Part shown: positions 5,135 through 17,760 of the stretch, one piece after another
Layout of the letters: every line of letters begins with the position of its first letter
Numbering within the stretch: position 1 is the stretch's first letter
Source of the DNA: an uncultured bacterium
GTDB lineage: Bacteria; Margulisbacteria; Termititenacia; Termititenacales; CAYUXF01
Length of the DNA stretch: 51,672 bases
Reading direction: 5' to 3'
NCBI GenBank assembly: GCA_964448755.1
Contig: CAYUXF010000004.1
Location: forward strand, 1-51,672
The notes under the pieces: model-generated
What the model was told of the DNA's origin: nothing
The model's database searches: none
What the model saw: only the letters and a program-made list of their open reading frames with translations
Program-made: the position numbers and the translations under genes

Positions 5135-5863
5135 ATGGTTTTTTTTGCCAGAGACAGGCTATTTAAAAACAATAAAAATTATCCCAAAGTTTTTAAGTTT
5201 AATGCGCTGGTTTCCCAAGTGTTTGATAACATGCTCAAGCGCAGTGTCCCTTTTTACTATAATATTCAAAAAGAGATCTGTTATTTTGCTAAAAAATTCA
5301 TCAAACCAAATACCAATGTTTATGATCTTGGCTGTTCAACCGGCTATACTGTCCGTAAAATTGCTAAAAACTTTAAAAAACAAAATATAACTTTATGGGC
5401 CGTTGATTATTCAAGCGAATTGCTCACTAGAGCGAAAGATCGTTTAAGAAAATACAAAAACATTAACTATATTAATTGTGATCTTAATAAAGATTTTAAA
5501 ATTTCTGGAGCCAGCTTTGTTGTTGCCAACTTAGTTTTACAGTTTTTAAAATATTCTTCCAGACAGAAACTTTTGAAAAATATTTATTCAGGTCTTCAGC
5601 CCGGCGGTTGTTTTATAATGGTTGAAAAATTGAGAAACGATAATTTTTTTCTGGAGAATATTTTTGTGGATCGTTACTATTTTTTTAAACAAAAAAACCG
5701 GTATTCAAGAGAGGAGATTGTTCGCAAAGAACGAGCGCTGAAAAGTATTTTATCTCCACTGACAATGCAAAAAAATATAGAGCTTTTGCAAAAAGCAGGC
5801 TTTTCTAATATAGAAGTATTTTTTAGGTGGTTTAATTTTTGTGGATTTATAGCGGTAAAATAA
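5135..5863 (+). CDS. cmoA: Carboxy-S-adenosyl-L-methionine (Cx-SAM) synthase, CmoA family
   Basis: 242 aa, collinear over its full length with E. coli CmoA as I recall it. Matching blocks: VFDNMLKRSVPFYYNIQ / VFPDMIQRSVPGYSNII; VYDLGCSTG / VYDLGCSLG; NLVLQFL..RQKLLKNIYSGLQPGG / NFTLQFL..RQALLDKIYQGLNPGG; YSREEIVRKERAL / YSELEISQKRSML; FFRWFNFCGFIAVK / WFQCFNFGSLVALK. Confidence 0.85.
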   Translation: MVFFARDRLFKNNKNYPKVFKFNALVSQVFDNMLKRSVPFYYNIQKEICYFAKKFIKPNTNVYDLGCSTGYTVRKIAKNFKKQNITLWAVDYSSELLTRAKDRLRKYKNINYINCDLNKDFKISGASFVVANLVLQFLKYSSRQKLLKNIYSGLQPGGCFIMVEKLRNDNFFLENIFVDRYYFFKQKNRYSREEIVRKERALKSILSPLTMQKNIELLQKAGFSNIEVFFRWFNFCGFIAVK

Positions 5864-6888: not shown

Positions 6889-7917
6889 ATGATTGAAACT
6901 GAAAATAATATCACTAATATATCTGATCCGGTAATCAAAAGTAATTGGTGCAATAAATTTGAAATTCCTTTAACAATGCTACAAACTGATTCTATTTTTG
7001 ATATTATTCAATCTGTAAAATACGGGGAATATATTCAAAGTGTTTATTTGCCTCTTTATGGGTTTGACGGTTTTTCTGGTAGACCTTTTTTTAAGAAAAC
7101 TAATGACAATCAAGTTGTAACTGTACCAGGCTATCAAAAGACAAAAGAAGAGTGGATCAGATTGATTAAAAACGTCGCTCAATACAAGCCTGTAACACTT
7201 ACAGTTCCTTTTTCAAAAAATATAAATTTAATTAAAGAATATATTGATTATGGCGTAAGTGAGATCATGATCAATCAATATTGGCCGGAACTTGATCAGG
7301 TTAAAGACAAGATCAAAATATCAAGATCTATTCTTGCTTATCATGATTCAGATGAGCCCATTGATGATCGTTTTGATGCAGTGATTATTCCCTATCGTAA
7401 AACTATGGACATAGAATGGTTAGAAAAGAATAGCAAGAAATTTGAGCTTATTGCGATCATAAATAATTATTGTGTAATAGAGTGCCCTTTGCAGAGTTAT
7501 AAAGAGAAGCTAATGCATAATTTTTATCGTGGTATTTTCCCTGTAAATAATGAGATCATGCCGTTTACTAAAAATTGTCTTAGATATGGCAAAACGACAT
7601 CTGCTATGTTGCCTAGAGATATTATTATCAAACTGAGTAAGTATATTTCTCGTTATAAATTAGTTGAAAGAGCATCTTCTCCCGCTGCTTATATTAGCTC
7701 TTTGAATTATTATATTTATAATGAACCTTTTTGTTTTGATTCTTTTAATTCTTCTGATTGGGTAAGAGAAGGTTTTAGTGCCGAGAAGATGGCTAGGATA
7801 ATGAAAGATAAAGAAGATCATTTTAGAGGATCAAACCTGGAAACACTTAATTGTAAATTTCAATGTTCTAGCTGTGATAGAAAGTGCTATAGTATTAATG
7901 ACTGGAATGATGAATAA
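6889..7917 (+). CDS. Cys-rich hypothetical protein, tentatively a U32-like barrel with a C-terminal Fe-S type Cys cluster
   Basis: 342-aa ORF. The pattern FEIPL...SVYLPLYGFDGFSGRP...KPVTLTV...GVSEIMI loosely follows the beta/alpha pattern of the U32 protein at 15809 and of the C-terminus of the 1556-aa protein. C-terminal NCKFQCSSCDRKC has spacing C-x3-C-x2-C-x3-C. There is also CVIEC. Confidence 0.35.
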   Translation: MIETENNITNISDPVIKSNWCNKFEIPLTMLQTDSIFDIIQSVKYGEYIQSVYLPLYGFDGFSGRPFFKKTNDNQVVTVPGYQKTKEEWIRLIKNVAQYKPVTLTVPFSKNINLIKEYIDYGVSEIMINQYWPELDQVKDKIKISRSILAYHDSDEPIDDRFDAVIIPYRKTMDIEWLEKNSKKFELIAIINNYCVIECPLQSYKEKLMHNFYRGIFPVNNEIMPFTKNCLRYGKTTSAMLPRDIIIKLSKYISRYKLVERASSPAAYISSLNYYIYNEPFCFDSFNSSDWVREGFSAEKMARIMKDKEDHFRGSNLETLNCKFQCSSCDRKCYSINDWNDE

Positions 7918-7966: not shown

Positions 7967-8542
7967 ATGACTTACCAAAATTACATGGATTACACTAATA
8001 AATCACCTGATTATTCAGATCATACTAACTGGAATGGTTCTGCCTGGGTAGCTAATTATCGTGATCATCAGAATTATACTATAGATGATGGTGTTGCCCC
8101 TGTCACCAATGATCGTCAATATGTTTATAATATTAATACCCCAGCTAATGCTTTTACACAGGAATCTTATATTAAAGATCAGATTAATAATCTTAAAACC
8201 TTAAGGGACGATACAATAGAGTTAGCCACCCGCAAAGTTACATCTACTGGTGGAACAAATACTCCGGATTCGGTAAATAGTTATAATAAGGACACCGATT
8301 TTGAAGAGGCAGATTATGCTATCCAGCAGCAGGTAGAAGAGACCATTGCCAATGTCAAGGCTCTTTGGCAGTCTATGAAGGGAAACAACGATAATAACTG
8401 GTCTGGCTGGCCGGCAGATGAGCAAGACGGGCAAAGAAGAAAAGCCAGTGACTATAATATTTTGCGTGATAAGTTGCAAGATTTGGCACAGACAAATAAG
8501 CCGACAGGTTATGCTGACCATAAAAATATTGGTACGCCATAA
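7967..8542 (+). CDS. Hypothetical 191-aa protein with N-terminal aromatic-X-(Asn/Asp) tripeptide arrays; candidate rSAM substrate
   Basis: Strong SD (GAGAGGA) 6-7 nt before the ATG. No signal peptide or TM segment. Residues 3-39 read YQN YMD YTN kspd YSD HTN WNG sa WvaN YRD HQN YTI. Y-x-D-H-x-N occurs three times (residues 16-21, 31-36, 182-187). Confidence 0.6.
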   Translation: MTYQNYMDYTNKSPDYSDHTNWNGSAWVANYRDHQNYTIDDGVAPVTNDRQYVYNINTPANAFTQESYIKDQINNLKTLRDDTIELATRKVTSTGGTNTPDSVNSYNKDTDFEEADYAIQQQVEETIANVKALWQSMKGNNDNNWSGWPADEQDGQRRKASDYNILRDKLQDLAQTNKPTGYADHKNIGTP

Positions 8543-8550
8543 CTAATTAG

Positions 8551-8814
8551 ATGGCTATTATAAAAAAGTCTATCTCAAAAAAAAATTTACCAAAAAATGT
8601 TACATGCTCTTGCTGCGGTAAAACGCTTAACGAGATCGTTGTTTTAACTGAGGTTTTGTTGGATGTCTATAGCTGGTATGTTAATGATTCTAAAAAACAG
8701 TTGGAAAACATTAATGGCCTCTGGAAAAAGAATGGTGAGTATTTTTGTGAGCTCTGTTTTGCAAAATATGTAAAAACCATAGAAAAATTCTATAAAGATT
8801 GTCGCAAGGCTTAA
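8551..8814 (+). CDS. Small Cys4 zinc-ribbon protein (87 aa)
   Basis: CSCCG (residues 19-23) and CELC (residues 66-69) form a split zinc-ribbon pattern, and there are six Cys in total. It is tightly packed between the 191-aa ORF (8-nt gap) and the rSAM gene (6-nt gap). Confidence 0.55.
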   Translation: MAIIKKSISKKNLPKNVTCSCCGKTLNEIVVLTEVLLDVYSWYVNDSKKQLENINGLWKKNGEYFCELCFAKYVKTIEKFYKDCRKA

Positions 8815-8820
8815 TTTTTT

Positions 8821-10143
8821 ATGTTTGAAAATATTTATGAGGTTATTTTAAAAGTAACTCGCGATTGTAATTTAAATTGTCAGTATTGTTATTTAGGCGA
8901 CAAAAAACAGTATGCCGGCGAACGGATGAGTTTTACTGTTTTCAAAAAACTGATTGATCAAATTTATTTAGACAAACATATTCGTAATAAAAAAGAGAGA
9001 TTTAATGGTCAGCTACAGATAGTTTTTCACGGCGGCGAACCTACTTTGCTGGGGATATCTAGGCTGGAAAAATTTATTAAGTATGCCAAAGCCAAACTTC
9101 CCTATGTCCGGTTTGGTATGCAGACAAATATGTTAGTAATAGATCAGCAATGGGTAAACTTTTTTAAAAAATATAATATTTCACCGGGTATTAGTGTAGA
9201 TGGTAATTTAAAAAAGGAAAATGCTTTGCGTTTACCGGGATTTGATTTTACAGAAAAATTAAATTTGCTTAAAAAAAACAAGATCAGGTTCGGGACACTG
9301 ATGGTCTTAAGTAGTCAAAATATCAAAAATTTTTCTAAAAATTTAATGACATTTATTAAAAAATATAAGATCTCCTCAATTAAAGCCAATTTTGTCGAAA
9401 ATATGGCCAAACCAGAATTTTGTTATCCAGAAGTGACTGCCGACCAAATGTATCAACATGTTTTTTTGCCGACGATGGCCTTGTTTTTTGATCAAAATAA
9501 ATTATATGAATCAAATATTGAACATCTTATTGATAAATATATTAATAGTTTACTGTATAAAGAGTCTGCGGCTAAAACTTGTTCACATACTATTTGTCAT
9601 GCCAAATTTTGCGGCGGGGGTAATGCGATTGTTGAGGTTGAACCAACTGGTGAAATTCTTTTTTGTGGCCGCTGGAATAAAATTAATAAAGTTAATTTAA
9701 TGAATGATCTAACTTCTTTTTTTGATCCCTTTGGTATATCTTCTTATAAACGCGTTTTTGATCTGCAATTGCAAAAAGCGACAGCTGTAAGAGAATTAGG
9801 CTGTGATAGTTGTCCCGCTGCCGGTATTTGCAATTATGGCTGTTTGGCTTTTGCTTATGTTAAATATCAGGGGCAGATCAAAATTCGTTCAGAACTTATC
9901 TGTGATTACTATAAAAAAGTCATTAAATATTTTCAGGCACGTTATCATCAAATAATTTATATTTATAGCATGATCACTAAAAAAGAGATAATAGTGGCTA
10001 GAGGAAAAGTATTAATTGATTTCCCTATGGCTATGATTAATGGTGTTAGTAAGAAAAAGTTACCAGCCGGTTTGGCTTGGCAAAAAGTTAATAATAAAAA
10101 TTATTTAACAATTTCCAATAAATATTTAAAAGATTTTTTATAG
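8821..10143 (+). CDS. Radical SAM enzyme with canonical SPASM domain (peptide/protein maturase type)
   Basis: CNLNCQYC (CX3CX2C) at residues 16-23; GGEPTLLG. The C-terminal SPASM signature is visible directly: C-GGGNAIVEVEPT-G-EILF-C, then C-DS-C-PAAGI-C-NYG-C, then a downstream Cys (ELICDYY). Confidence 0.9.
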   Translation: MFENIYEVILKVTRDCNLNCQYCYLGDKKQYAGERMSFTVFKKLIDQIYLDKHIRNKKERFNGQLQIVFHGGEPTLLGISRLEKFIKYAKAKLPYVRFGMQTNMLVIDQQWVNFFKKYNISPGISVDGNLKKENALRLPGFDFTEKLNLLKKNKIRFGTLMVLSSQNIKNFSKNLMTFIKKYKISSIKANFVENMAKPEFCYPEVTADQMYQHVFLPTMALFFDQNKLYESNIEHLIDKYINSLLYKESAAKTCSHTICHAKFCGGGNAIVEVEPTGEILFCGRWNKINKVNLMNDLTSFFDPFGISSYKRVFDLQLQKATAVRELGCDSCPAAGICNYGCLAFAYVKYQGQIKIRSELICDYYKKVIKYFQARYHQIIYIYSMITKKEIIVARGKVLIDFPMAMINGVSKKKLPAGLAWQKVNNKNYLTISNKYLKDFL

Positions 10144-13100
10144 GGTTTTCTGTTGGCTGAATTTTGGCTGATAGACGATTCTCGATATTTTTAGTTTTTC
10201 CAAACAGGTACTATCTGGCAAACTGGTGTTTGTATAAAACTGGGTGTTGCCATTGATCAAGAGTGGCTCGTCATAGTTTCTTAAGTTGGCTGTAATATAT
10301 TTTTGCTGACAGTGTTGATAACAAAGATCTTTTTCTTTAAATAAACATTTTTTAGTTGTCGTTATATAGACATAAGGCAAGTAGAGACTATTACTTAAGT
10401 CTTCTGGCAATACAGCATCATATCCTTGCCAGACATTATCAAATTCTATGCCATTAATTTTATTGCTTAATAAATATTTCTGAAATATTTTTTCTGTTAA
10501 ATTAGCTGTGCGCAAATATTTTAATAATTCATTGTTATTTGTTTGGCGTGGTTCTCGTTTAACTTTTAATAAAAGGCGCCCCAGGCGCGGCGTTAACTGA
10601 TGCTTTTTTATTGAGGATAATAATCCCCAGTCATTAAAGACAATTTCACAATTTAAGGGCAGTAAAGGCAATAACTCAATTATTTTTTTTAATCCTTTTT
10701 CAGTTAGCGGCGGCGTTAATAAAATAAATCTTTTTTTATTTTTAAGACAATAATTTAAAAATGCTGCGGTTTTTTCTTTAGTGGGAATTAATTCTTCACA
10801 AAATTCTGAACCTAAGTAGATGTGAGTGTAGTTTAAGTGTTCCAGATCGGTTATTTTTTTTATGTTGTCAATGGCCAGCGCTAATTCTAACCGATGTTCT
10901 TTTAGATATTCTGGCAATTGGGCTAATAATTCTTTTTCTGTTTTTTCCCAGTTGTTAGATTTCTCTATTTGCTCAACAGCTGTTTTTATTGGTTCTTTAT
11001 TTTTTAGATAAGTGACCAGTTTTGGTATTTGTTGGTTGTAGTCATACTGTTTGGCTTTTTGCCTATTTATTTTTTGCATGGCCTGACGTGTTTTGTTATC
11101 AGATAATAAAATTAGTGCTGATAATAATTGTTGCGTGTCAGGAATATTGTTGTTGATATCTATTGTAAAGCCATTCTCGCCATCTATGACCAGTTCATTT
11201 ACTGCCTGCCAATTAGTGGTGATTATGGCGCAACCTGCGGCCATCCCCTCCACAATTGCCCGGCCAAAAGTTTCTCCTGTATCTGTGGAAAGAAAAACCA
11301 GCACATTAGATTCATTGAGGATTTGATTTCGCTTAATTTTTTCTTGTGTAAGATCTCCATGAAAAACAATATTTTCTTTCAGGTTAAATCGCTCAATAGT
11401 TTGGTGTAATAACGCTAAGTATTGTTTTTCTTCTTTATTTAAATTTTCCAGCGGACAGATAATATTCAATTTAAAAGATATTGCATTTTTACTGGCGCCT
11501 AGTAGACTGAGAAGAACGTGCAGATTTTTTACAGGGGTTAACCGTCCGCAATAAACCAGGCTCAGTTCATTGCTTTGGTCATAATTTTTCGGAAATTCTC
11601 TATAGTTTATTGGTCCGGCCATTTTTAGGAGATCAAAGTTTAGCGAAATTTGCTGAAAACTGCTGTGGAGATATTTGCTGAATGTCAAAAATGTATCAAT
11701 GTTTTTTGCTTCTCTGGCTAAGCGAAAATATCTTGCGCGCCACGGCTCAAAAATATAGGGCCAGACAATAAAGCCAATGGGCAATTTATTATCGTTGCGG
11801 TAAGTAAATAACGGATAAGCATCAATTGTAATATTGAGAAAGATAAAACTGATCTGGTTGGTTGTTAAAAAATTAAAAAAATCTATCAGTGATCTTTGTA
11901 AATGTTCTTCTTTGATCAAGATAACCTCAAAATAATTGCTAAGATATTTTAAGTTATCTTGATCGGTAACTTGATGACTAATATTGGCATATTGCTCTAT
12001 TTTTATTGCCGCTAGTTTGATCTTATTGTTGTTTTTTTCTTCAATTATTAGCTGTTCTTTAAGTTCAAAGTTAGCTACGGGTTTGTTTAAACATATTTCT
12101 GGCGGTAGCTCCAAAAAGAGCGGATGCTCTTGCCAGATAGTTTTTAAAACATAATAATTTTTTTCTAGATTTTTTATAGCAAGCGGTTTGTTTTTTTTGT
12201 AGAGCAGACAATCATTAGCTAGTAATATTTTATAGCCGTTATGCCGTGCTCTAAAACAGAAGTCAAAATAGGTATAAAGATCACTTTCTATAAAATTCTT
12301 GTTGAGCCCGCCAGCTTTTTGCAATAATGTCTTTTTTATTAGTAAACAGCTATCCCAAAGCCAATTTTTTTCTGTATAAGTTTCTGGTAGTTCTTCTGTC
12401 TGGCCTTTTTTCTTGTTTTTTATGTCAGTAAAATTATCGGTATAATTAGGCCCAACAATACCTATCTCTTTACAGAAAATAAACCCATTTTTTAATTTAT
12501 TTAACCAGTTATCGCTAATAATAATATTATCAGAAATTAAACAAACGTAGCGGCTTTGGCGATTATTTAACCCATCATTAATAAACGCTATTTCGCTGGT
12601 TGTTTGTGGGGCGATGATAATTTTTATATTTTTATATTTTTTTTGTAGTTGGTCATAATAGCTTTTTTTAGCTGAAGTAATGTTTTTATTTAAAATAATC
12701 AAATTAAAAGGGTGGCGCGTTCTTAAATAAAGAGCTGCCAGCGCTCGTTTAGTTAAAGAAAAATCATTGGATGTTAATAATATTATATCGATTGTTTCAC
12801 AGAAGATAGAATATTTTTCTAATAATTCACAGAACTGATATTTTTTTGTAAAACTAAGCTTGCTCTTGGCTACTCTTTCTTCAATATCAGGTGCGGTGAT
12901 CTGTTCTTCTAATGTAATATTGGCATAAAGAAAAAATTCTTGCCAGGAAAAGCTATTATTGCCAAATATTTCTGCTATTTCAGAGGTTTTAATTTTTTTT
13001 ACAGGTAGTAAGTTCAGATCGCTAATTGAAGGGACTGTGAAAGAGTGAATAGTGTAAATATTGTAATATTTTAGATGAAAATAAAAAGTTATCCCTTTAT

Positions 13101-14808
13101 CATCATGATTAATAGTGGAGAAGCTTAAGAATTGTAAGTTTTTTAATTTTCTGTTTTTTAGCATTAATTCAATCGAATAAAAAAGTGAATTTAAGCCGAG
13201 TTGTCCGGTCATTTTTTTTGTAAGCCCCTCATCATGTTGTCTTTTAAAATATAAAACCTTGGGGATAATATAAATTGGGGCCAGGGTTTCTAACCTAATA
13301 AATATATCGGCGTCTTCGCAGGCATTTAAAACTTCCGGGTTCCAGTGCCAACCGCCGATCTTTTTGAGATGTTTGGCATTGATCAAATAAGGTTGATAAA
13401 TATTGTAGATATCGATAGTAAATCCTTGATATTTTTGCCGTTGTTCAGGGATGATTTCCAGTGACATTATCTCTGATGTTATTCTGAGTCCGGCACGGAT
13501 GAGAGAAAAATCTTTATGTTTCGAAATTTCTTTTTTTAATTCTGCCAGTAGGGTAGGTGCTACATGGTCATCTGAATCAAGCGGAATTATATAGGGGCTG
13601 TTGGAGTTACTAAAGAGTATCTGTCGTGTAGGGCCTACACCTAAATTTCTGGTATTTTGAAAAAATTTTATTTTTTTATGTTTTTTATATTTTTCAACCA
13701 ATTCAGCTGCTTTTTTTTGGTCTGGTGGATTATCAAAACAAATGAGTAATTCCCAGTTTTTGTTAGTTTGCTGTATTACGGAAGTTACTGTTTCTTCAAT
13801 ATGTCGCAAGTCATAGGCCGGGCATTGAAAAGAGAAAAGAGGCCCTTTCTTCGCTCTATTGTTGATTGTTTTTTTTATGGGATTGATCTGAGTGTTTTTT
13901 AATATTTGAACACAAATTTCTGGCAGATCAAAGTCATAAAAATTATTATTATTAAAATTTATTAAATACTTTCCTGTTTTTAGATCTGAAGGTATTTTTG
14001 GATTTTTTATAGGGAGATCTTTATCTGTGATTGTTGTTTGATAATTATTCAAAATACTGATCTCTAATTTTTTGGAGTTATAAATTATTAAGTTAAAGTT
14101 TTTGTAGATTTGTTCATCAAGATAATTTTTAATTTTTAAAATATCTTTTTCCTGGGTTATTTTGAAAAAAAGAGATAGCAGTGGTTGCTCTAATTGCCAA
14201 AACTGCCCGGTAAAGGATTTTTTATTTATGGGGAATTTTAGATATTTTGGTAGGTAACTAAAGAGAGGTGTATTTTGCCAGCGGTAATAAAAAGCAGTGT
14301 AGTTTTCTTTAATCAATTTAGCAGCTTTTTCTGCGCCAAACGTGCCGCAATTGGCATGATGAATTTTACTATTGTGAGCGACTAATATTTTATAGCCGGC
14401 TTCAATTACTTTAAAACAGAGGTCAATATCCTCAAAATAACCTGGTCCAAAAATATTATCAAATAAGATATTTTCTTTGATCAATTGGCGATCGATCATA
14501 AAACAAGTGCCATAGACATAAGGGGCTTCAGTGTAAGTTGTTTTGCTGGAGATGGGGTTTTGGTAGGGATTATTGCAATTTATTAAAGGGGCTACAATGC
14601 CAACATTATTTGCCTTTTCAAACCCTTTAGCTAAGTTTTCCAGCCAGCCTTTATTAACTGTAGTATCATTGTTAAGTATTACCAGATATTTTGCTGTGCA
14701 ATGGGGAAGAGCCAGATTAATACTTTTTATAAACCCTAGGTTTTCATTGTTTTTAATTATTTTAATTTTCTTATGTTTTTTTAGTGAGTTATAATAATCT
14801 ATTGCCAA
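10138..14808 (-). CDS. Multidomain glycosyltransferase fusion: GT2 + GT2 + GT2 + GT4(GT-B) + C-terminal U32-like module
   Basis: 1556-aa ORF. GT2 no.1 is about 14340-14808 (ILNNDT, YFEDIDLCFKVIEAGYKI). GT2 no.2 is about 13230-13850 (PLDSDD). GT2 no.3 is about 12190-12800 (LISDNII, FDFCFRARHNGYKI). GT4 is about 11000-12000 (ETFGRAIVEGMAAGCAII, an EX7E motif). The U32-like tail is about 10138-10900 (HIYLGSEFCEE...ILLTPP...EIVFNDWGLL). The true start is probably upstream of 14808 (see findings). Confidence 0.8.
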   Translation of the reverse strand: MAIDYYNSLKKHKKIKIIKNNENLGFIKSINLALPHCTAKYLVILNNDTTVNKGWLENLAKGFEKANNVGIVAPLINCNNPYQNPISSKTTYTEAPYVYGTCFMIDRQLIKENILFDNIFGPGYFEDIDLCFKVIEAGYKILVAHNSKIHHANCGTFGAEKAAKLIKENYTAFYYRWQNTPLFSYLPKYLKFPINKKSFTGQFWQLEQPLLSLFFKITQEKDILKIKNYLDEQIYKNFNLIIYNSKKLEISILNNYQTTITDKDLPIKNPKIPSDLKTGKYLINFNNNNFYDFDLPEICVQILKNTQINPIKKTINNRAKKGPLFSFQCPAYDLRHIEETVTSVIQQTNKNWELLICFDNPPDQKKAAELVEKYKKHKKIKFFQNTRNLGVGPTRQILFSNSNSPYIIPLDSDDHVAPTLLAELKKEISKHKDFSLIRAGLRITSEIMSLEIIPEQRQKYQGFTIDIYNIYQPYLINAKHLKKIGGWHWNPEVLNACEDADIFIRLETLAPIYIIPKVLYFKRQHDEGLTKKMTGQLGLNSLFYSIELMLKNRKLKNLQFLSFSTINHDDKGITFYFHLKYYNIYTIHSFTVPSISDLNLLPVKKIKTSEIAEIFGNNSFSWQEFFLYANITLEEQITAPDIEERVAKSKLSFTKKYQFCELLEKYSIFCETIDIILLTSNDFSLTKRALAALYLRTRHPFNLIILNKNITSAKKSYYDQLQKKYKNIKIIIAPQTTSEIAFINDGLNNRQSRYVCLISDNIIISDNWLNKLKNGFIFCKEIGIVGPNYTDNFTDIKNKKKGQTEELPETYTEKNWLWDSCLLIKKTLLQKAGGLNKNFIESDLYTYFDFCFRARHNGYKILLANDCLLYKKNKPLAIKNLEKNYYVLKTIWQEHPLFLELPPEICLNKPVANFELKEQLIIEEKNNNKIKLAAIKIEQYANISHQVTDQDNLKYLSNYFEVILIKEEHLQRSLIDFFNFLTTNQISFIFLNITIDAYPLFTYRNDNKLPIGFIVWPYIFEPWRARYFRLAREAKNIDTFLTFSKYLHSSFQQISLNFDLLKMAGPINYREFPKNYDQSNELSLVYCGRLTPVKNLHVLLSLLGASKNAISFKLNIICPLENLNKEEKQYLALLHQTIERFNLKENIVFHGDLTQEKIKRNQILNESNVLVFLSTDTGETFGRAIVEGMAAGCAIITTNWQAVNELVIDGENGFTIDINNNIPDTQQLLSALILLSDNKTRQAMQKINRQKAKQYDYNQQIPKLVTYLKNKEPIKTAVEQIEKSNNWEKTEKELLAQLPEYLKEHRLELALAIDNIKKITDLEHLNYTHIYLGSEFCEELIPTKEKTAAFLNYCLKNKKRFILLTPPLTEKGLKKIIELLPLLPLNCEIVFNDWGLLSSIKKHQLTPRLGRLLLKVKREPRQTNNNELLKYLRTANLTEKIFQKYLLSNKINGIEFDNVWQGYDAVLPEDLSNSLYLPYVYITTTKKCLFKEKDLCYQHCQQKYITANLRNYDEPLLINGNTQFYTNTSLPDSTCLEKLKISRIVYQPKFSQQKTL

Positions 14809-14964
14809 TGGATCGGTGGAGTTATCATCAATAATGATTATTGAAAAAATATCTGACGTGGAGCAAAAAATAGAAGCAAGACATTTTTTTGTTAATGTAT
14901 GATTGTTGTATACAGGGATTAGTATTTCAACTTTAATTGTTTTAAATCCTAGCTTTTAGTGTTT

Positions 14965-15702: not shown

Positions 15703-15808
15703 AAATTTCCTTTTCTATAGTTTTATTCATAATATTATACTGTAAATAGTAGATCAATAAAACTTAATAAAATTGATTTTTTGCTATTCATTAAGTATGC
15801 TCTTGAGA

Positions 15809-16711
15809 ATGAAAATAGAGGTCCCAGTTAGAGGTTATAGAGAGGCTGTAGAGTTGCTGGCGGCTGGTGCCGATATTCTCTATGGTGCTCTGGCCCCACA
15901 ATTCTATAGCAATGCCGCTGGTGCTGTTAGCCGTAGAGCCTGGCAAGAGTGTAATATTTTTTCTTTACAAGATCTAAAGGCAATTTGTCAGTTAGTTAAA
16001 GAAAAAAATAAAAAGTTTTATTTGGCCTTAAATGAACATTTTTATAATGAAGAACAATTGCAGGGGATTAGCGCGTTTTTAAAAATTAATAAATTTATTA
16101 AAAATATTATTATTGCAGATCTAGGCTTGGTCCTTTTTTTAAGAAAAAACTTTCCTAAACTAAATATTATTGCCAGTGTTGGGACACATGTGTTTAATTC
16201 TGCGGCGGTTAGTTTTTATGAAAATTTAGGAGTTAAAGAAATAGTTTTGCCAAGAGAGATAACGGCTGAAGAGGTAGTTTTATTAAAAAACAGTGCAGCG
16301 CAAATTAGTTTTTCGTATATTATAAAAAACGATGATTGTCCTAATATTGATGGTCTTTGTGCGTATTCTCATGGCATTTATGATGGTAGTGGTCCATGTA
16401 CAGATCTTTATAATATTGTTTGTAAAGATAGAATTTCCGAAGACGTCGTTGAAATAAATGATTATAATTTTAGATCACGTCAAAATTGCAAGGTTTGTCA
16501 ATTAAAGAGTTTTGCGCAAGCGGGGTTGGATATTGTTAAAATTGCTGGCAGAGGTAGTTCTTTAAAGAAGCTAGTTCAAGATATTGATTTTTTGAAACAG
16601 GCGATTGGTTTTTTGAAATATCCAGAGCAGCAATTTTTGTTTAGTCTAAAAAATGCATATAGAAAAAGTTATAATTGTGAATGTTTGGTGAATTGTCAGG
16701 ATGGTTCTTAA
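15809..16711 (+). CDS. Peptidase-U32-family protein (family of the O2-independent hydroxylases UbiU/UbiV, TrhP, RlhA)
   Basis: MKIEVPVRGYREAVELLAAGADILYG..., KKFYLALN, IIIADLGL, IVLPREIT. The U32 Cys signature C-x4-G-x-C-x-x-S is present as CPNIDGLCAYS, with further Cys in CTDLYNIVC. The ORF track begins at TTG 15773; ATG 15809 matches the usual family N-terminus. The start is uncertain. Confidence 0.8.
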   Translation: MKIEVPVRGYREAVELLAAGADILYGALAPQFYSNAAGAVSRRAWQECNIFSLQDLKAICQLVKEKNKKFYLALNEHFYNEEQLQGISAFLKINKFIKNIIIADLGLVLFLRKNFPKLNIIASVGTHVFNSAAVSFYENLGVKEIVLPREITAEEVVLLKNSAAQISFSYIIKNDDCPNIDGLCAYSHGIYDGSGPCTDLYNIVCKDRISEDVVEINDYNFRSRQNCKVCQLKSFAQAGLDIVKIAGRGSSLKKLVQDIDFLKQAIGFLKYPEQQFLFSLKNAYRKSYNCECLVNCQDGS

Positions 16712-16737: not shown

Positions 16738-17760
16738 ATGCAGGTTTTAGATATAATGCAGTTAGAGTTTAATAAATTGAAACAACAGGACTTGCCTTTC
16801 CATGTGTTGGTTAAATTTAGCGGAGGTAAAGATAGTTCATATTTATTATATTTAATGAAAGAAAAATATGGGTTAACTCCGTTAGCTTTTTCAGTGATCC
16901 ATCCTTTTGTGGGGAAACAAGCCCTTTCCAACATGAAAAGAGTTTGTCGAAAATTAAAGGTCAAGTGGCAGCCGTGTTTTGTTGATAAAAAAGAGTTCTA
17001 TCAATATATGAGTTATGGCCTCAAGAATTATCAAAAATATAATACAAAATATCACCAGGCTGATCTTTATGGTTGTAGGCTCTGTTGTTCGGTTTATAAT
17101 ACGCTAGCTTATAGAAAAGCACTGGAATTAAATATTCCTTGTGTGATCGATGGTAGTGATTTTAATCAGCTGGGTTTTCCCTTATTTATACAAGGTTGTT
17201 CAGTCAAGGAAGAGCTGAATAAGGATGAAACTTTCTTTGGTTCTTATGAGCGGATCCTTCAGGATCTTCAACAGCAAAAATCGCTTAAGCCTATATATTT
17301 ATCGGTTTATGCCAAAATGCCGGATAAGACTTTCCCGGATTATGTTGCTCCGCTTTCAATAATTGAATATGACCCTGAAAAAGCTAAGTTGTTGCTGGAA
17401 GCAAAAGGGATAATTAAGTCTAATAAATTGTTTGTTGAAAAAACCAACTGTACGGTTCGCCATCTTTTTGCCCACCTAGGGTTTAAGTATTTTAATTGCC
17501 ATCCCTATCAGGAACACGTTTTGCGGATGGCTGACTCTGGTCGCCATGGTTTTACTCGTGATAAGGTGAGCGCCTATTTTGTAGAATTAAAAAATTTATT
17601 AAATTATCTAGCTAAAAATCCAGGCTTAAAAAATAAAGAGCTAAAGCAGCTGTATGCTAATTATCCTGTGCTGGCTTTGCGCCATAACTGTTCTTTGCCC
17701 TGGCTGAAAGATTTACAGCAGCTGCATAGATATGCGGAATATTTAGATGTTAAACTTTGA
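16738..17760 (+). CDS. PP-loop ATP pyrophosphatase (adenine-nucleotide alpha-hydrolase), resembling N-acetyl-sugar amidotransferases
   Basis: PP-loop SGGKDS in VLVKFSGGKDSSYLLYLMKEKYGLTPLAF. CRLCC motif and IDGSDFNQLG block. The overall pattern resembles the WbpG/PseA-type amidotransferase family, but TtcA/QueC-like roles cannot be excluded. Confidence 0.65.
   Translation: MQVLDIMQLEFNKLKQQDLPFHVLVKFSGGKDSSYLLYLMKEKYGLTPLAFSVIHPFVGKQALSNMKRVCRKLKVKWQPCFVDKKEFYQYMSYGLKNYQKYNTKYHQADLYGCRLCCSVYNTLAYRKALELNIPCVIDGSDFNQLGFPLFIQGCSVKEELNKDETFFGSYERILQDLQQQKSLKPIYLSVYAKMPDKTFPDYVAPLSIIEYDPEKAKLLLEAKGIIKSNKLFVEKTNCTVRHLFAHLGFKYFNCHPYQEHVLRMADSGRHGFTRDKVSAYFVELKNLLNYLAKNPGLKNKELKQLYANYPVLALRHNCSLPWLKDLQQLHRYAEYLDVKL

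What the first reader, a model, noticed from the sequence alone, without database searches (positions are those of the whole stretch)
10138..10900. U32-like module fused to the C-terminus of a four-domain glycosyltransferase
Seen: after three GT2 domains and one GT4 domain, the last 250 or so residues read ...HIYLGSEFCEELIP...KRFILLTPPLTEKGL...CEIVFNDWGLL...GIEFDN...LYLPYVYITTTKKCLFKEKDLCYQHC...RIVYQP. By eye this follows the same architecture as the bona fide U32 protein at 15809-16711 (ADILYG.., KKFYLALN.., IIIADLGL.., IVLPRE.., a Cys cluster) and as ORF 6889-7917. Established: U32 proteins are now known as Fe-S enzymes for O2-independent hydroxylation (UbiU/UbiV on the ubiquinone ring, TrhP on tRNA U34, RlhA on 23S rRNA C2501). 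As far as I know, no fusion to glycosyltransferases has been described. Inference: the fusion points to hydroxylate-then-glycosylate channeling on a single polypeptide. That would make three U32-type modules in one island.
Basis: partly seen in the sequence, partly recalled or inferred. Interest (0 to 1): 0.65.

Follow-up and report, generated by a model that had tools for sequence, protein, structure and literature searches.

The report
UbiV-like Fe-S domain fused to glycosyltransferases
The last 250 residues of a giant four-domain glycosyltransferase are a very distant, unannotated relative of the iron-sulfur "U32" oxygen-free hydroxylases. The domain most resembles the small subunit UbiV and almost always works beside a second U32 protein, so oxygen-independent hydroxylation may be wired directly to sugar attachment in a biosynthetic island.

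Summary
ORF 10138..14808(-), really about 1599 aa from an ATT at 14937, carries GT2 x3 and GT4. It ends in a 250-aa domain ("X", nt 10159-10887) with no Pfam, NCBIfam or PDB sequence match.

X belongs to a large unannotated family: 1057 clusters at 50% identity. The AF2 model is confident (pLDDT 95) and shows a beta/alpha barrel. Four Cys are conserved in 95-99% of 150 representatives.

Profile-profile comparison ties X to the U32 catalytic domain:
- Probability 91-94%, E 1e-6 to 2e-7, colinear over up to 223 columns.
- Shuffled, reversed and 13 unrelated real families score 25 or less, against 51-57.
- The four Cys align with the four proven [4Fe-4S] ligands of E. coli UbiV.

X genes sit directly beside a short divergent U32 gene, as ubiU sits beside ubiV:
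- 9 of 9 contexts read by hand.
- 52 of 80 named genome loci (four more have it within 6 kb).
- Exact co-occurrence in 5 of 146 genomes of this phylum.

The island's U32 (15797-16711) is of that partner type.

Best reading: the tail is the UbiV-like subunit of a two-subunit O2-independent hydroxylase, tethered to the glycosyltransferases.

The "third U32 module" (6889-7917) is not supported. The chemistry and the substrate are inferred only.

The parts
10138..14937 (-). Giant glycosyltransferase gene, about 1599 aa if started at ATT 14937 (1556 aa from TTG 14808): GT2-GT2-GT2-GT4-X
   Evidence: ORF and translation. Frame open to 14955 with MKVEILIPVYN upstream of the TTG. Pfam domains. Orthologous architectures in P0030 and P0069.
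10159..10887 (-). X domain: UbiV-like, U32-superfamily beta/alpha barrel with a four-Cys site (residues about 1308-1550 in TTG numbering)
   Evidence: HMM match 4e-81. AF2 pLDDT 95.4. hhalign to U32 at 91-94%. Family of 1057 representatives.
10798..10800 (-). Cys37 of the domain (C1337), in the motif Y-L-G-S-E-F-C; aligns with UbiV C39
   Evidence: Conserved in 147/150 representatives. Alignment to UbiV. UbiV ligands from PMC6747719.
10309..10347 (-). Cys188, Cys196 and Cys200 (C1488, C1496, C1500), motif C-x7-C-x3-C; align with UbiV C180/C193/C197 and with Cys 2-4 of the canonical U32 CX6CX15CX3C
   Evidence: Conserved in 148, 143 and 146 of 150 representatives. hhalign alignments.
11059..11577 (-). 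GT4 (Glycos_transf_1) domain, directly N-terminal of X through a linker of about 50 residues
   Evidence: PF00534 6.4e-21, residues 1078-1250. GT4 precedes X in all five GT-fused family members.
12205..14937 (-). Three GT2 domains
   Evidence: PF00535, three stretches, 2.6e-34. N-terminal extension.
15797..16711 (+). Short divergent U32 protein (P0179, 304 aa): the predicted UbiU-like partner of the X domain
   Evidence: PF01136 4.5e-26. Homologous to every U32 found next to a standalone X. Best A4 hit in the phylum. AF2 plus Foldseek top hit 5D88.
5135..5863 (+). CmoA-family carboxy-SAM synthase, a prephenate-consuming enzyme, in the same island
   Evidence: TIGR00740 197.3 bits against a cut-off of 193.3.
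7967..10143 (+). Conserved neighbour module, convergent with the GT-X gene: 191-aa protein, 87-aa Cys-rich protein and an rSAM/SPASM maturase similar to cyclophane-forming enzymes. Candidate source of the substrate.
   Evidence: NCBIfam hits to AmcB, YhhB, GrrM, XyeB-type and sulfatase-type maturases. All three genes are conserved beside the GT-X ortholog in L042, and an rSAM is conserved in L038.

Best explanation
The C-terminal 250 residues are an autonomous beta/alpha-barrel domain of a large, so far unmodelled branch of the U32 superfamily. That branch plays the role UbiV plays for UbiU.

Inferred: the domain binds a [4Fe-4S] cluster through Cys37, Cys188, Cys196 and Cys200. It pairs with the separately encoded short U32 protein at 15797-16711. 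Together they would form a two-subunit, O2-independent hydroxylase, by analogy prephenate-dependent.

In this lineage the small subunit has been fused behind a GT4 and three GT2 domains. The hydroxyl made by the pair would therefore be created on the same assembly that then glycosylates the substrate. The substrate is most plausibly an aromatic residue of the peptide or protein matured by the neighbouring rSAM module. Less plausibly it is the island's acyl or polyene product.

Shown here: homology, Cys conservation, fold, gene pairing and the recurrence of the fusion.

Inferred only: cluster binding, heterodimer formation, hydroxylation, prephenate use, the substrate, and the order of hydroxylation and glycosylation.
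For: (1) Family. 1057 representatives at E<=1e-3, mostly standalone proteins of 250-290 aa without any Pfam domain.

(2) Remote homology.
- hhalign of X against 10 TrhP-like U32: P 91.1%, E 1e-6, 223 colinear columns.
- Against a combined U32 alignment: P 93.7%, E 1.8e-7.
- Against 59 partner U32 proteins: P 83.7%.
- Controls: reversed 17, 40 column shuffles at most 20, and 13 unrelated real families, including three radical-SAM families, at most 25.
- Calibration: true UbiV against the partner U32 family scores the same as X does, 72% against 71%.

(3) Cysteines. Four Cys are conserved in 95-99% of representatives. They align one-to-one with UbiV C39/C180/C193/C197, which are the proven [4Fe-4S] ligands (PMC6747719).

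(4) Fold. AF2 pLDDT 95.4. The order of secondary-structure elements matches the AF2 model of the island U32. The generic Foldseek neighbours are the same: PEP-mutase/isocitrate-lyase barrels and CutC.

(5) Pairing.
- U32 immediately next to X in 5/5 metagenomic contexts.
- Same in 4/4 other genomes of the phylum.
- In 80 named loci, 56 have a U32: always on the same strand, median gap 12 nt, 52 directly adjacent.
- The 5 genomes of 146 that have X are exactly the 5 with a partner-type U32.
- The window's U32 is homologous to all these partners.

(6) GT link.
- U32, X and GT4 occur as three consecutive genes in L033.
- The GT-X fusions form one clade, support 99/96.
- An ortholog pair, P0069 (GT-X) and P0183 (U32), lies on one 76-kb contig with the same island genes.

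(7) Prephenate is plausible. CmoA is in the island and chorismate synthase is in the genome.
Against: - No HMM-level match of any family member to PF01136 or to the UbiV, UbiU or TrhP NCBIfam models. The A2 profile does not find the island U32 in its own genome even at E<=10.
- hhalign probabilities stay below 95%. Against UbiV alone the probability is only 18%, with a low-diversity UbiV alignment.
- Foldseek of the X model does not list the one U32 catalytic-domain structure (5D88) in its top 50. Its best hits are generic TIM barrels at E of 7e-3 or worse.
- In the window the partner U32 is not adjacent. It lies 5 kb away on the other strand.
- The window's tail, like its closest homolog P0030, has Gly at a position where 142/150 members have Arg.
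- 24 of 80 loci have no U32 within 6 kb. Of these, 21 form one derived Thermodesulfobacteriota clade.
- No U32 protein has yet been shown to hydroxylate in vitro (PMC10990095).
Confidence: 0.6

Rival explanations
1. The tail is a U32-superfamily Fe-S module, but a non-catalytic one. It would act as an electron-relay or docking subunit that recruits the true catalytic U32 (15797-16711) to the glycosyltransferase, without binding substrate itself.
For: - The role of UbiV relative to UbiU is itself unresolved, and the clusters may only relay electrons (PMC10990095).
- The window tail has lost the near-invariant Arg153.
- X lacks the first Cys of the canonical CX6C and borrows an N-terminal Cys, as UbiV does.
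- The partner U32 family carries 7 invariant Cys, enough for extra clusters.
Against: X has many invariant polar residues besides the Cys: E35, E88, N92, D93, G110-R111, E155, D157, N158, R243. That is more than a pure ferredoxin-like relay would need. A whole clade of X lives without an adjacent U32.
Confidence: 0.2
2. The tail is an ordinary TIM-barrel carbohydrate-active or sugar-modifying enzyme (epimerase, lyase or hydrolase) with a structural Cys4 metal site. It would be unrelated in function to U32 hydroxylases and fused to the GTs to prepare or trim the sugar.
For: Foldseek hits include D-psicose 3-epimerase, GH10 xylanases and a chitinase-like barrel. The domain is fused to GT domains. 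A WbuX-like sugar amidotransferase is nearby.
Against: - Those hits are weak: E of 7e-3 or worse, TM 0.3-0.48. The same generic barrels are hit, more strongly, by the bona fide U32 model.
- This reading does not explain the specific hhalign signal to U32.
- It does not explain the one-to-one Cys match with UbiV.
- It does not explain the near-obligate adjacency to U32 genes in loci that have no GT at all.
Confidence: 0.08
3. The U32/X pair performs a redox reaction other than hydroxylation, for example dehydrogenation, or dehydroxylation or desaturation of a peptide or lipid. The analogy with UbiU/V would then hold only at the level of fold and cofactor.
For: - Most of the twelve U32 subfamilies are uncharacterised (PMC10990095).
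- X is more divergent than any of them.
- Its loci often hold FAD-linked oxidases, amine-oxidase/CrtI-like enzymes and many rSAMs.
Against: - All three characterised U32 systems are O2-independent hydroxylases of aromatic or heteroaromatic carbons.
- Methyltransferases are the most frequent fusion or neighbour of X. This fits O-methylation of a new hydroxyl, as in ubiquinone and cmo5U synthesis.
- CmoA is in this island.
Confidence: 0.12

Closest known systems
UbiV (YhbV) of the UbiU-UbiV heterodimer, O2-independent ubiquinone hydroxylase, E. coli
   Same: - Size of about 260-290 aa.
- Beta/alpha barrel.
- Four-Cys motif with the first Cys far upstream, just after beta-strand 2 (YLGEAVC in UbiV, YLGSEFC here), followed by C...C-x3-C. 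All four align.
- Encoded directly next to a longer U32 partner, mostly downstream of it.
- Found with methyltransferases that could act on the new hydroxyl.
   Different: - No HMM-level similarity. UbiV hits PF01136 and X does not.
- The spacing of Cys 2-3 is 7-20 residues instead of 12.
- No UbiT/SCP2 gene or ubiquinone context was seen.
- X occurs in anaerobic bacteria and archaea, far outside Proteobacteria.
- Here it is fused to four GT domains.
TrhP / CmoA / CmoB pathway (tRNA ho5U to cmo5U)
   Same: A U32 enzyme and a prephenate-using CmoA-family enzyme occur together. The logic of hydroxylating and then decorating the hydroxyl is shared. TrhP-like U32 proteins give the best profile match to X.
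   Different: TrhP is a single 400-450-aa protein with a C-terminal beta-barrel, and the genome has its own copy on contig 16. The island's U32 is short and paired with X. The decoration here includes glycosylation, and the substrate is not tRNA.
Peptidase U32 Mk0906 (PDB 5D88)
   Same: It is the only solved U32 catalytic domain, a TIM-like barrel. It is the top Foldseek hit of the island's true U32 model.
   Different: It is not among the top 50 Foldseek hits of the X model. By structure search, X is no closer to it than to generic barrels.

Membership tests
Peptidase_U32 / U32 oxidases (PF01136, IPR001539) | Significant match to the family HMM (PF01136 gathering score 22.4) | tested here: not met
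   No PF01136 hit for the full protein, the isolated tail (E up to 10), or 10 fused family members. Precomputed Pfam is '-' for all 25 standalone homologs.
Peptidase_U32 / U32 oxidases (PF01136, IPR001539) | Profile-profile homology to the catalytic domain, colinear over the barrel | tested here: met
   hhalign P 91.1% / E 1e-6 / 223 columns; 93.7% / 1.8e-7; 83.7% against 59 partner U32 proteins. Controls score at most 25.
Peptidase_U32 / U32 oxidases (PF01136, IPR001539) | (beta-alpha)8-type barrel as in PDB 5D88 | tested here: inconclusive
   The AF2 model is a confident beta/alpha barrel with the same element order as the U32 model. However, 5D88 is absent from its top 50 Foldseek hits, while it is rank 1 for the true U32.
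Peptidase_U32 / U32 oxidases (PF01136, IPR001539) | Conserved four-cysteine motif (CX6CX15CX3/4C, or the UbiV variant CXnCX12CX3C) | tested here: met
   UbiV-type variant C37...C188-x7(-20)-C196-x3-C200, conserved in 143-148 of 150 representatives and aligned to the U32 and UbiV Cys (motif definition from PMC6747719).
Peptidase_U32 / U32 oxidases (PF01136, IPR001539) | Binds a [4Fe-4S] cluster; supports O2-independent, prephenate-dependent hydroxylation | not testable with these tools
   Needs anaerobic purification, UV-vis/EPR and product analysis.
UbiV (NCBIfam NF047965) | Score over the equivalog cut-off (275 bits) | tested here: not met
   No NCBIfam hit at all for the tail. No UbiV over the cut-off in any of 146 genomes of the phylum.
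UbiV (NCBIfam NF047965) | Encoded with, and acting with, a UbiU-like U32 partner | tested here: met
   Genetic pairing only: 9/9 contexts read by hand, 52/80 adjacent in named genomes, and exact phyletic co-occurrence in 5/146 genomes. Physical interaction was not tested.
UbiV (NCBIfam NF047965) | Ubiquinone-pathway context (UbiT/SCP2, Ubi genes) | not tested
   No such genes appeared among the Pfam hits of the island or of the ten neighbourhoods read. No dedicated search was made.
GT4-X fusion architecture (this report) | X directly C-terminal of a GT4 domain in one polypeptide | tested here: met
   Seen in the window protein, P0030, P0069, P0031 and P0048. The GT2...GT4-X forms are monophyletic.

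The most novel reading that the evidence does not exclude
Short-U32 plus X pairs are a widespread, unrecognised class of two-subunit, O2-independent (prephenate-dependent) hydroxylases. They would tailor ribosomal peptides and other natural products in anaerobic bacteria and archaea. In this organism the small subunit is welded to a four-domain glycosyltransferase, so the newly made hydroxyl would be glycosylated on the same assembly. That would be the first U32 chemistry outside quinone and RNA substrates.
Probability: 0.3. Interest if true: 0.8.

Novelty: new variant of a known kind. Interest (0 to 1): 0.6.

Why it matters
U32 proteins are the only known enzymes that hydroxylate without O2 using an organic oxygen donor. 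Only three substrates are known: the ubiquinone ring, tRNA U34 and rRNA C2501. No structure of a cluster-bearing member and no in-vitro assay exists.

This domain defines a large branch of the superfamily that Pfam and NCBIfam do not see. It has at least 1000 clusters at 50% identity and 304 loci in species-representative genomes, including Asgard, Bathyarchaeia and Methanosarcinales archaea. The branch behaves genetically like UbiV.

It therefore gives three things:
- A second, independent example of the heterodimer principle.
- A set of small, well-folding proteins (AF2 pLDDT 95) for biochemistry.
- Biosynthetic contexts (rSAM/RiPP genes, methyltransferases, GTs) where the product of the reaction could be read by mass spectrometry.

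The GT fusion is a natural "Rosetta stone" that links the hydroxylase to glycosylation of the same substrate.

Tried and rejected
- Direct sequence methods found nothing for the tail: Pfam, NCBIfam and PDB phmmer/hmmsearch, and BLASTP against the island U32, ORF 6889-7917 and UbiV.
- Foldseek against PDB cannot settle the U32 question. PDB holds only one very divergent U32 catalytic domain (5D88) and a C-terminal domain (4HE5/6). U32 and UbiV sequence profiles find no catalytic-domain chain. Even the true U32 model ranks 5D88 only marginally above generic barrels.
- The UbiV homolog search returned only sequences at least 85% identical to the query (apart from one 73% hit covering 73% of it), so it gave no diverse UbiV profile. 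I used TrhP-like and partner U32 proteins from genomes instead.
- 'of' centred on E. coli is not accepted by the genome search. A2 was too diverse for the search for related loci, so A1 was used.
It has one paralog on contig 25 and no homolog in the sister island.
- A radical-SAM relationship for X: rejected. X has no CX3CX2C motif, and hhalign to three rSAM families scores at most 24.
- Model coordinates are not exposed, so I could not measure whether the four Cys converge in the AF2 model.
Full report
**What is there.** The minus-strand ORF 10138..14808 translates without stops into 1556 aa. The frame stays open to 14955. The upstream 43 codons from an ATT at 14937 encode the missing start of the first GT2 domain (MKVEILIPVYN...IIIDDNSTD), preceded by AGGA. 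The protein is therefore most likely about 1599 aa with a non-canonical start. Pfam finds three GT2 stretches and one GT4 at residues 1078-1250. It finds nothing for the last 250-300 residues. The tail alone finds no Pfam or NCBIfam family at E up to 10, and only a chance-level PDB sequence hit (a gamma-tubulin complex component, E 0.58).

**The tail is a real, widespread, unmodelled domain.**
- An exhaustive phmmer search against 1.84 billion representatives found 1057 proteins at E<=1e-3 and 496 at E<=1e-10.
- Most are standalone proteins of 250-290 aa. All 25 found by the word-indexed search carry no Pfam domain and are named "hypothetical" at best.
- The fusions are: GT2+GT4+X (P0030, 60% identical to the tail), GT2x3+GT4+X (P0069), B12-radical-SAM+GT4+X with or without a methyltransferase (P0031, P0048), and many X+methyltransferase proteins.
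- In a 106-sequence alignment (A2) C37, C188 and C200 are invariant and C196 nearly so.
- Over 150 representatives that are at most 50% identical to each other, the four Cys are present in 147, 148, 143 and 146.
- Other near-invariant positions are Y31-x-G33-x-E35-F36-C37, E88, N92-D93-W94-G95, G110-R111, R153-x-E155-x-D157-N158, P178, G220-N221 and R243.
- The window protein and its closest homolog have Gly at 153, where 142/150 have Arg.
- AlphaFold2 with A2 gives a very confident model: pLDDT 95.4, pTM 0.92. It is a beta/alpha barrel followed by a beta-rich part that carries the C-x7-C-x3-C loop.

**Is it U32-like?** HMM-level methods say nothing, so I used profile-profile comparison with controls.

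| Comparison | Probability | E-value | Columns or score |
|---|---|---|---|
| A2 vs ten TrhP-like U32 proteins from genomes of the same phylum | 91.1% | 1e-6 | 223 colinear columns (X 5-245 on U32 3-247) |
| A2 vs a combined 25-sequence U32 alignment | 93.7% | 1.8e-7 | score 57.4, 132 columns |
| A2 vs 59 partner U32 proteins | 83.7% | 8e-6 | score 47.5, 129 columns |

- In the TrhP-like comparison, X C188, C196 and C200 sit on Cys 2, 3 and 4 of the canonical CX6CX15CX3C motif.
- Controls: the reversed alignment scores 17. Forty column shuffles score at most 20. Thirteen unrelated natural families taken from the same loci score 13-25, against 51-57 for the real comparison. Those families include three radical-SAM families, a GT2 and an FAD oxidase.
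- Calibration: genuine UbiV scores 97% against TrhP-like proteins but only 72% (E 3e-5) against the partner U32 family. That is the same as X against that family, 71% (E 4e-5).
- X aligned to UbiV is weak in score (18%, E 1.4e-3; the UbiV alignment was nearly clonal). It is nevertheless colinear over 175 columns and puts C37, C188, C196 and C200 on UbiV C39, C180, C193 and C197.
- Those four residues are the experimentally established [4Fe-4S] ligands. UbiV is the one U32 subfamily whose first Cys lies far upstream, outside the Pfam domain (PMC6747719). The local motif is alike: YLGEAVC in UbiV, YLGSEFC here.

**Structure search is uninformative either way.**
- The X model hits only generic TIM barrels: isocitrate-lyase/PEP-mutase barrels, CutC, dehydroquinase and a sugar epimerase, at E of 7e-3 or worse and TM 0.3-0.48.
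- PDB has no cluster-bearing U32. U32 and UbiV profiles retrieve nothing, and a TrhP-like query retrieves only the C-terminal domain 4HE5.
- An AF2 model of the island's true U32 (pLDDT 84) has the same order of strands and helices as X. It hits the same generic barrels. Its first hit is the divergent U32 structure 5D88 (8.4e-7), barely ahead of them.
- 5D88 is not in X's top 50. I count this as mild evidence against, not as a refutation.

**Genomic pairing is the strongest functional evidence.**
- Every standalone X gene whose neighbourhood I read lies directly beside a short (308-360 aa) PF01136 protein on the same strand, often overlapping it. This holds for five metagenomic contigs and for the four other genomes of the window's phylum that have X.
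- Among 80 loci from named species genomes, 56 have such a U32. All are on the same strand, the median gap is 12 nt, and 52 are directly adjacent.
- These genomes include Thermodesulfobacteriota, Omnitrophota, Acidobacteriota, Planctomycetota, Actinomycetota, Methanosarcinales, Bathyarchaeia, Helarchaeota, Woesearchaeota and Undinarchaeota.
- Of the 24 loci without a U32, 21 form one well-supported derived clade (99/95) of Thermodesulfobacteriota genes beside a Ham1 gene.
- In the window's phylum X occurs in 5 of 146 genomes. The five best matches to the partner-U32 profile (172-403 bits, ORFs of 316-360 aa) are in exactly those five genomes. All other hits are TrhP-like or RlhA-like proteins of 400-640 aa at 152 bits or less.
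- The window's U32 (15797-16711) is homologous to every partner (tblastn 1e-13 to 1e-74). It is the only such protein in the genome.
- This is the ubiU-ubiV arrangement. UbiU-UbiV form a heterodimer with one cluster each (PMC6747719).

**Link to glycosylation and to the rest of the island.**
- In L033 a U32, an X and a 555-aa GT4 are three consecutive genes followed by an ABC transporter.
- In all five GT-fused family members (the window protein and the four homologs above) X follows a GT4.
- The GT2...GT4-X proteins (window, P0030, P0069) are monophyletic (99/96). They sit inside a fusion-prone clade whose unfused or MT-fused members are U32-adjacent.
- P0069 and P0183, the ortholog of the island U32, lie about 20 kb apart on one 76-kb contig. 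That contig repeats the island's content: GNAT, ACP, KS, a KS-like protein, a CrtI-like oxidase and rSAM/SPASM genes.
- The three genes convergent with the GT-X gene are conserved beside P0069, and an rSAM is conserved beside P0030. They are the 191-aa protein 7967-8542, the 87-aa Cys-rich protein 8551-8814, and the rSAM/SPASM 8821-10143. That rSAM resembles the anaerobic sulfatase maturase and peptide maturases, including several cyclophane-forming ones.
- Standalone U32/X pairs also sit among RiPP-type genes: PqqD, ScmC, Frankia_peptide, HxsD and rSAMs. An rSAM family recurs in 20 of 56 paired loci.
- The island further encodes a CmoA-family carboxy-SAM synthase (TIGR00740, 197.3 against a cut-off of 193.3), whose substrate is prephenate. 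It also encodes a WbuX-like sugar amidotransferase.
- The genome has chorismate synthase. Prephenate is the oxygen donor proposed for U32 hydroxylases (PMC10990095).

**Interpretation.**
- Shown: X is a conserved, autonomously folding barrel with a four-Cys site. It is specifically but remotely related to U32 catalytic domains. It has the UbiV type of Cys arrangement, is genetically coupled to a dedicated short U32, and is recurrently fused or adjacent to GT4.
- Inferred: X binds a [4Fe-4S] cluster and forms a UbiU/UbiV-like complex with the 15797-16711 protein. The pair hydroxylates a carbon without O2, by analogy an aromatic one. The attached GT domains then use that hydroxyl.
- The substrate is unknown. 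The conserved rSAM/peptide module next to the gene makes a modified peptide or protein the leading candidate.
- I put about 0.8 on "remote U32-superfamily, UbiV-like partner domain" and 0.6 on the full statement, including a role in hydroxylation.

- ORF 6889-7917 shows no relation to U32 or X: hhalign probability below 5%, scores 22-24. It has no homolog in the sister island. Its one paralog, on contig 25, sits next to another rSAM. The island therefore has two U32-type modules, not three.
- These two are probably two halves of one enzyme rather than independent hydroxylases.

**Novelty.** I found no paper in the searchable library that joins U32 proteins to glycosyltransferases or to RiPP clusters. 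Reviews list only quinone and RNA substrates and call most subfamilies uncharacterised. This is a new, very divergent branch and a new domain architecture of a known superfamily, not a new kind of system.

Noticed in passing
window 14809-14955 (-): The giant gene's first GT2 domain starts upstream of any ATG, GTG or TTG. An in-frame ATT at 14937-14935, preceded by AGGA, gives MKVEILIPVYN. This points to probable ATT initiation.
   Followed up: partly
L052, L058, L060, L061, L073 and others (21 loci, Thermodesulfobacteriota): One well-supported clade of X-family genes has no U32 within 6 kb. Twelve of the 24 U32-less loci carry a conserved Ham1/RdgB gene nearby on the same strand. The same genomes often hold a second, U32-paired X copy. 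The function of this 'solo' clade is unexplained.
   Followed up: partly
alignment A4 (window 15797-16711 and partners): The short partner-U32 family has seven invariant Cys: C181, C188, C201, C231, C234, C296 and C300 in window numbering. That is three more than the canonical U32 cluster motif, which suggests a second metal or Fe-S site (CxxC plus a C-terminal Cx3C).
   Followed up: no
window 10447-10449 (residue 153 of the X domain): The window protein and its closest homolog P0030 have Gly where 142 of 150 family representatives have Arg (motif R-x-E-x-D-N). The other GT-fused member, P0069, keeps the Arg.
   Followed up: partly
window 6889-7917 and G000:C25:1099-2088: The Cys-rich 342-aa orphan has a 58%-identical paralog elsewhere in the genome, again followed by a radical-SAM/SPASM-like gene. 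It has only one weak hit in 146 genomes of the phylum and no Pfam or NCBIfam family.
   Followed up: partly
window 5135-5863: A CmoA-family carboxy-SAM synthase passes the TIGR00740 equivalog cut-off only just (197.3 against 193.3) inside a biosynthetic island, next to a non-CmoB methyltransferase. The genome has chorismate synthase on contig 18.
   Followed up: partly
G126:C8:67731-69551 and G103:C20:43040-44059: In two other genomes of the phylum the matches to X and/or the partner U32 contain one in-frame stop (TAA or TAG). These could be pseudogenes, read-through across the gene junction by the six-frame search, or recoding. This was not resolved.
   Followed up: no
L033 6932-14339: One Omnitrophota contig carries two U32/X pairs in a row. 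The second is flanked by a TPMT-like methyltransferase upstream and followed by a separate GT4 and an ABC transporter. This looks like an unfused version of the GT4-X architecture.
   Followed up: partly
window 16738-17760: The PP-loop protein next to the U32 gene is a weak relative of WbuX-type N-acetyl-sugar amidotransferases (58 bits, below the cut-off). This hints at sugar amidation in the same pathway.
   Followed up: no
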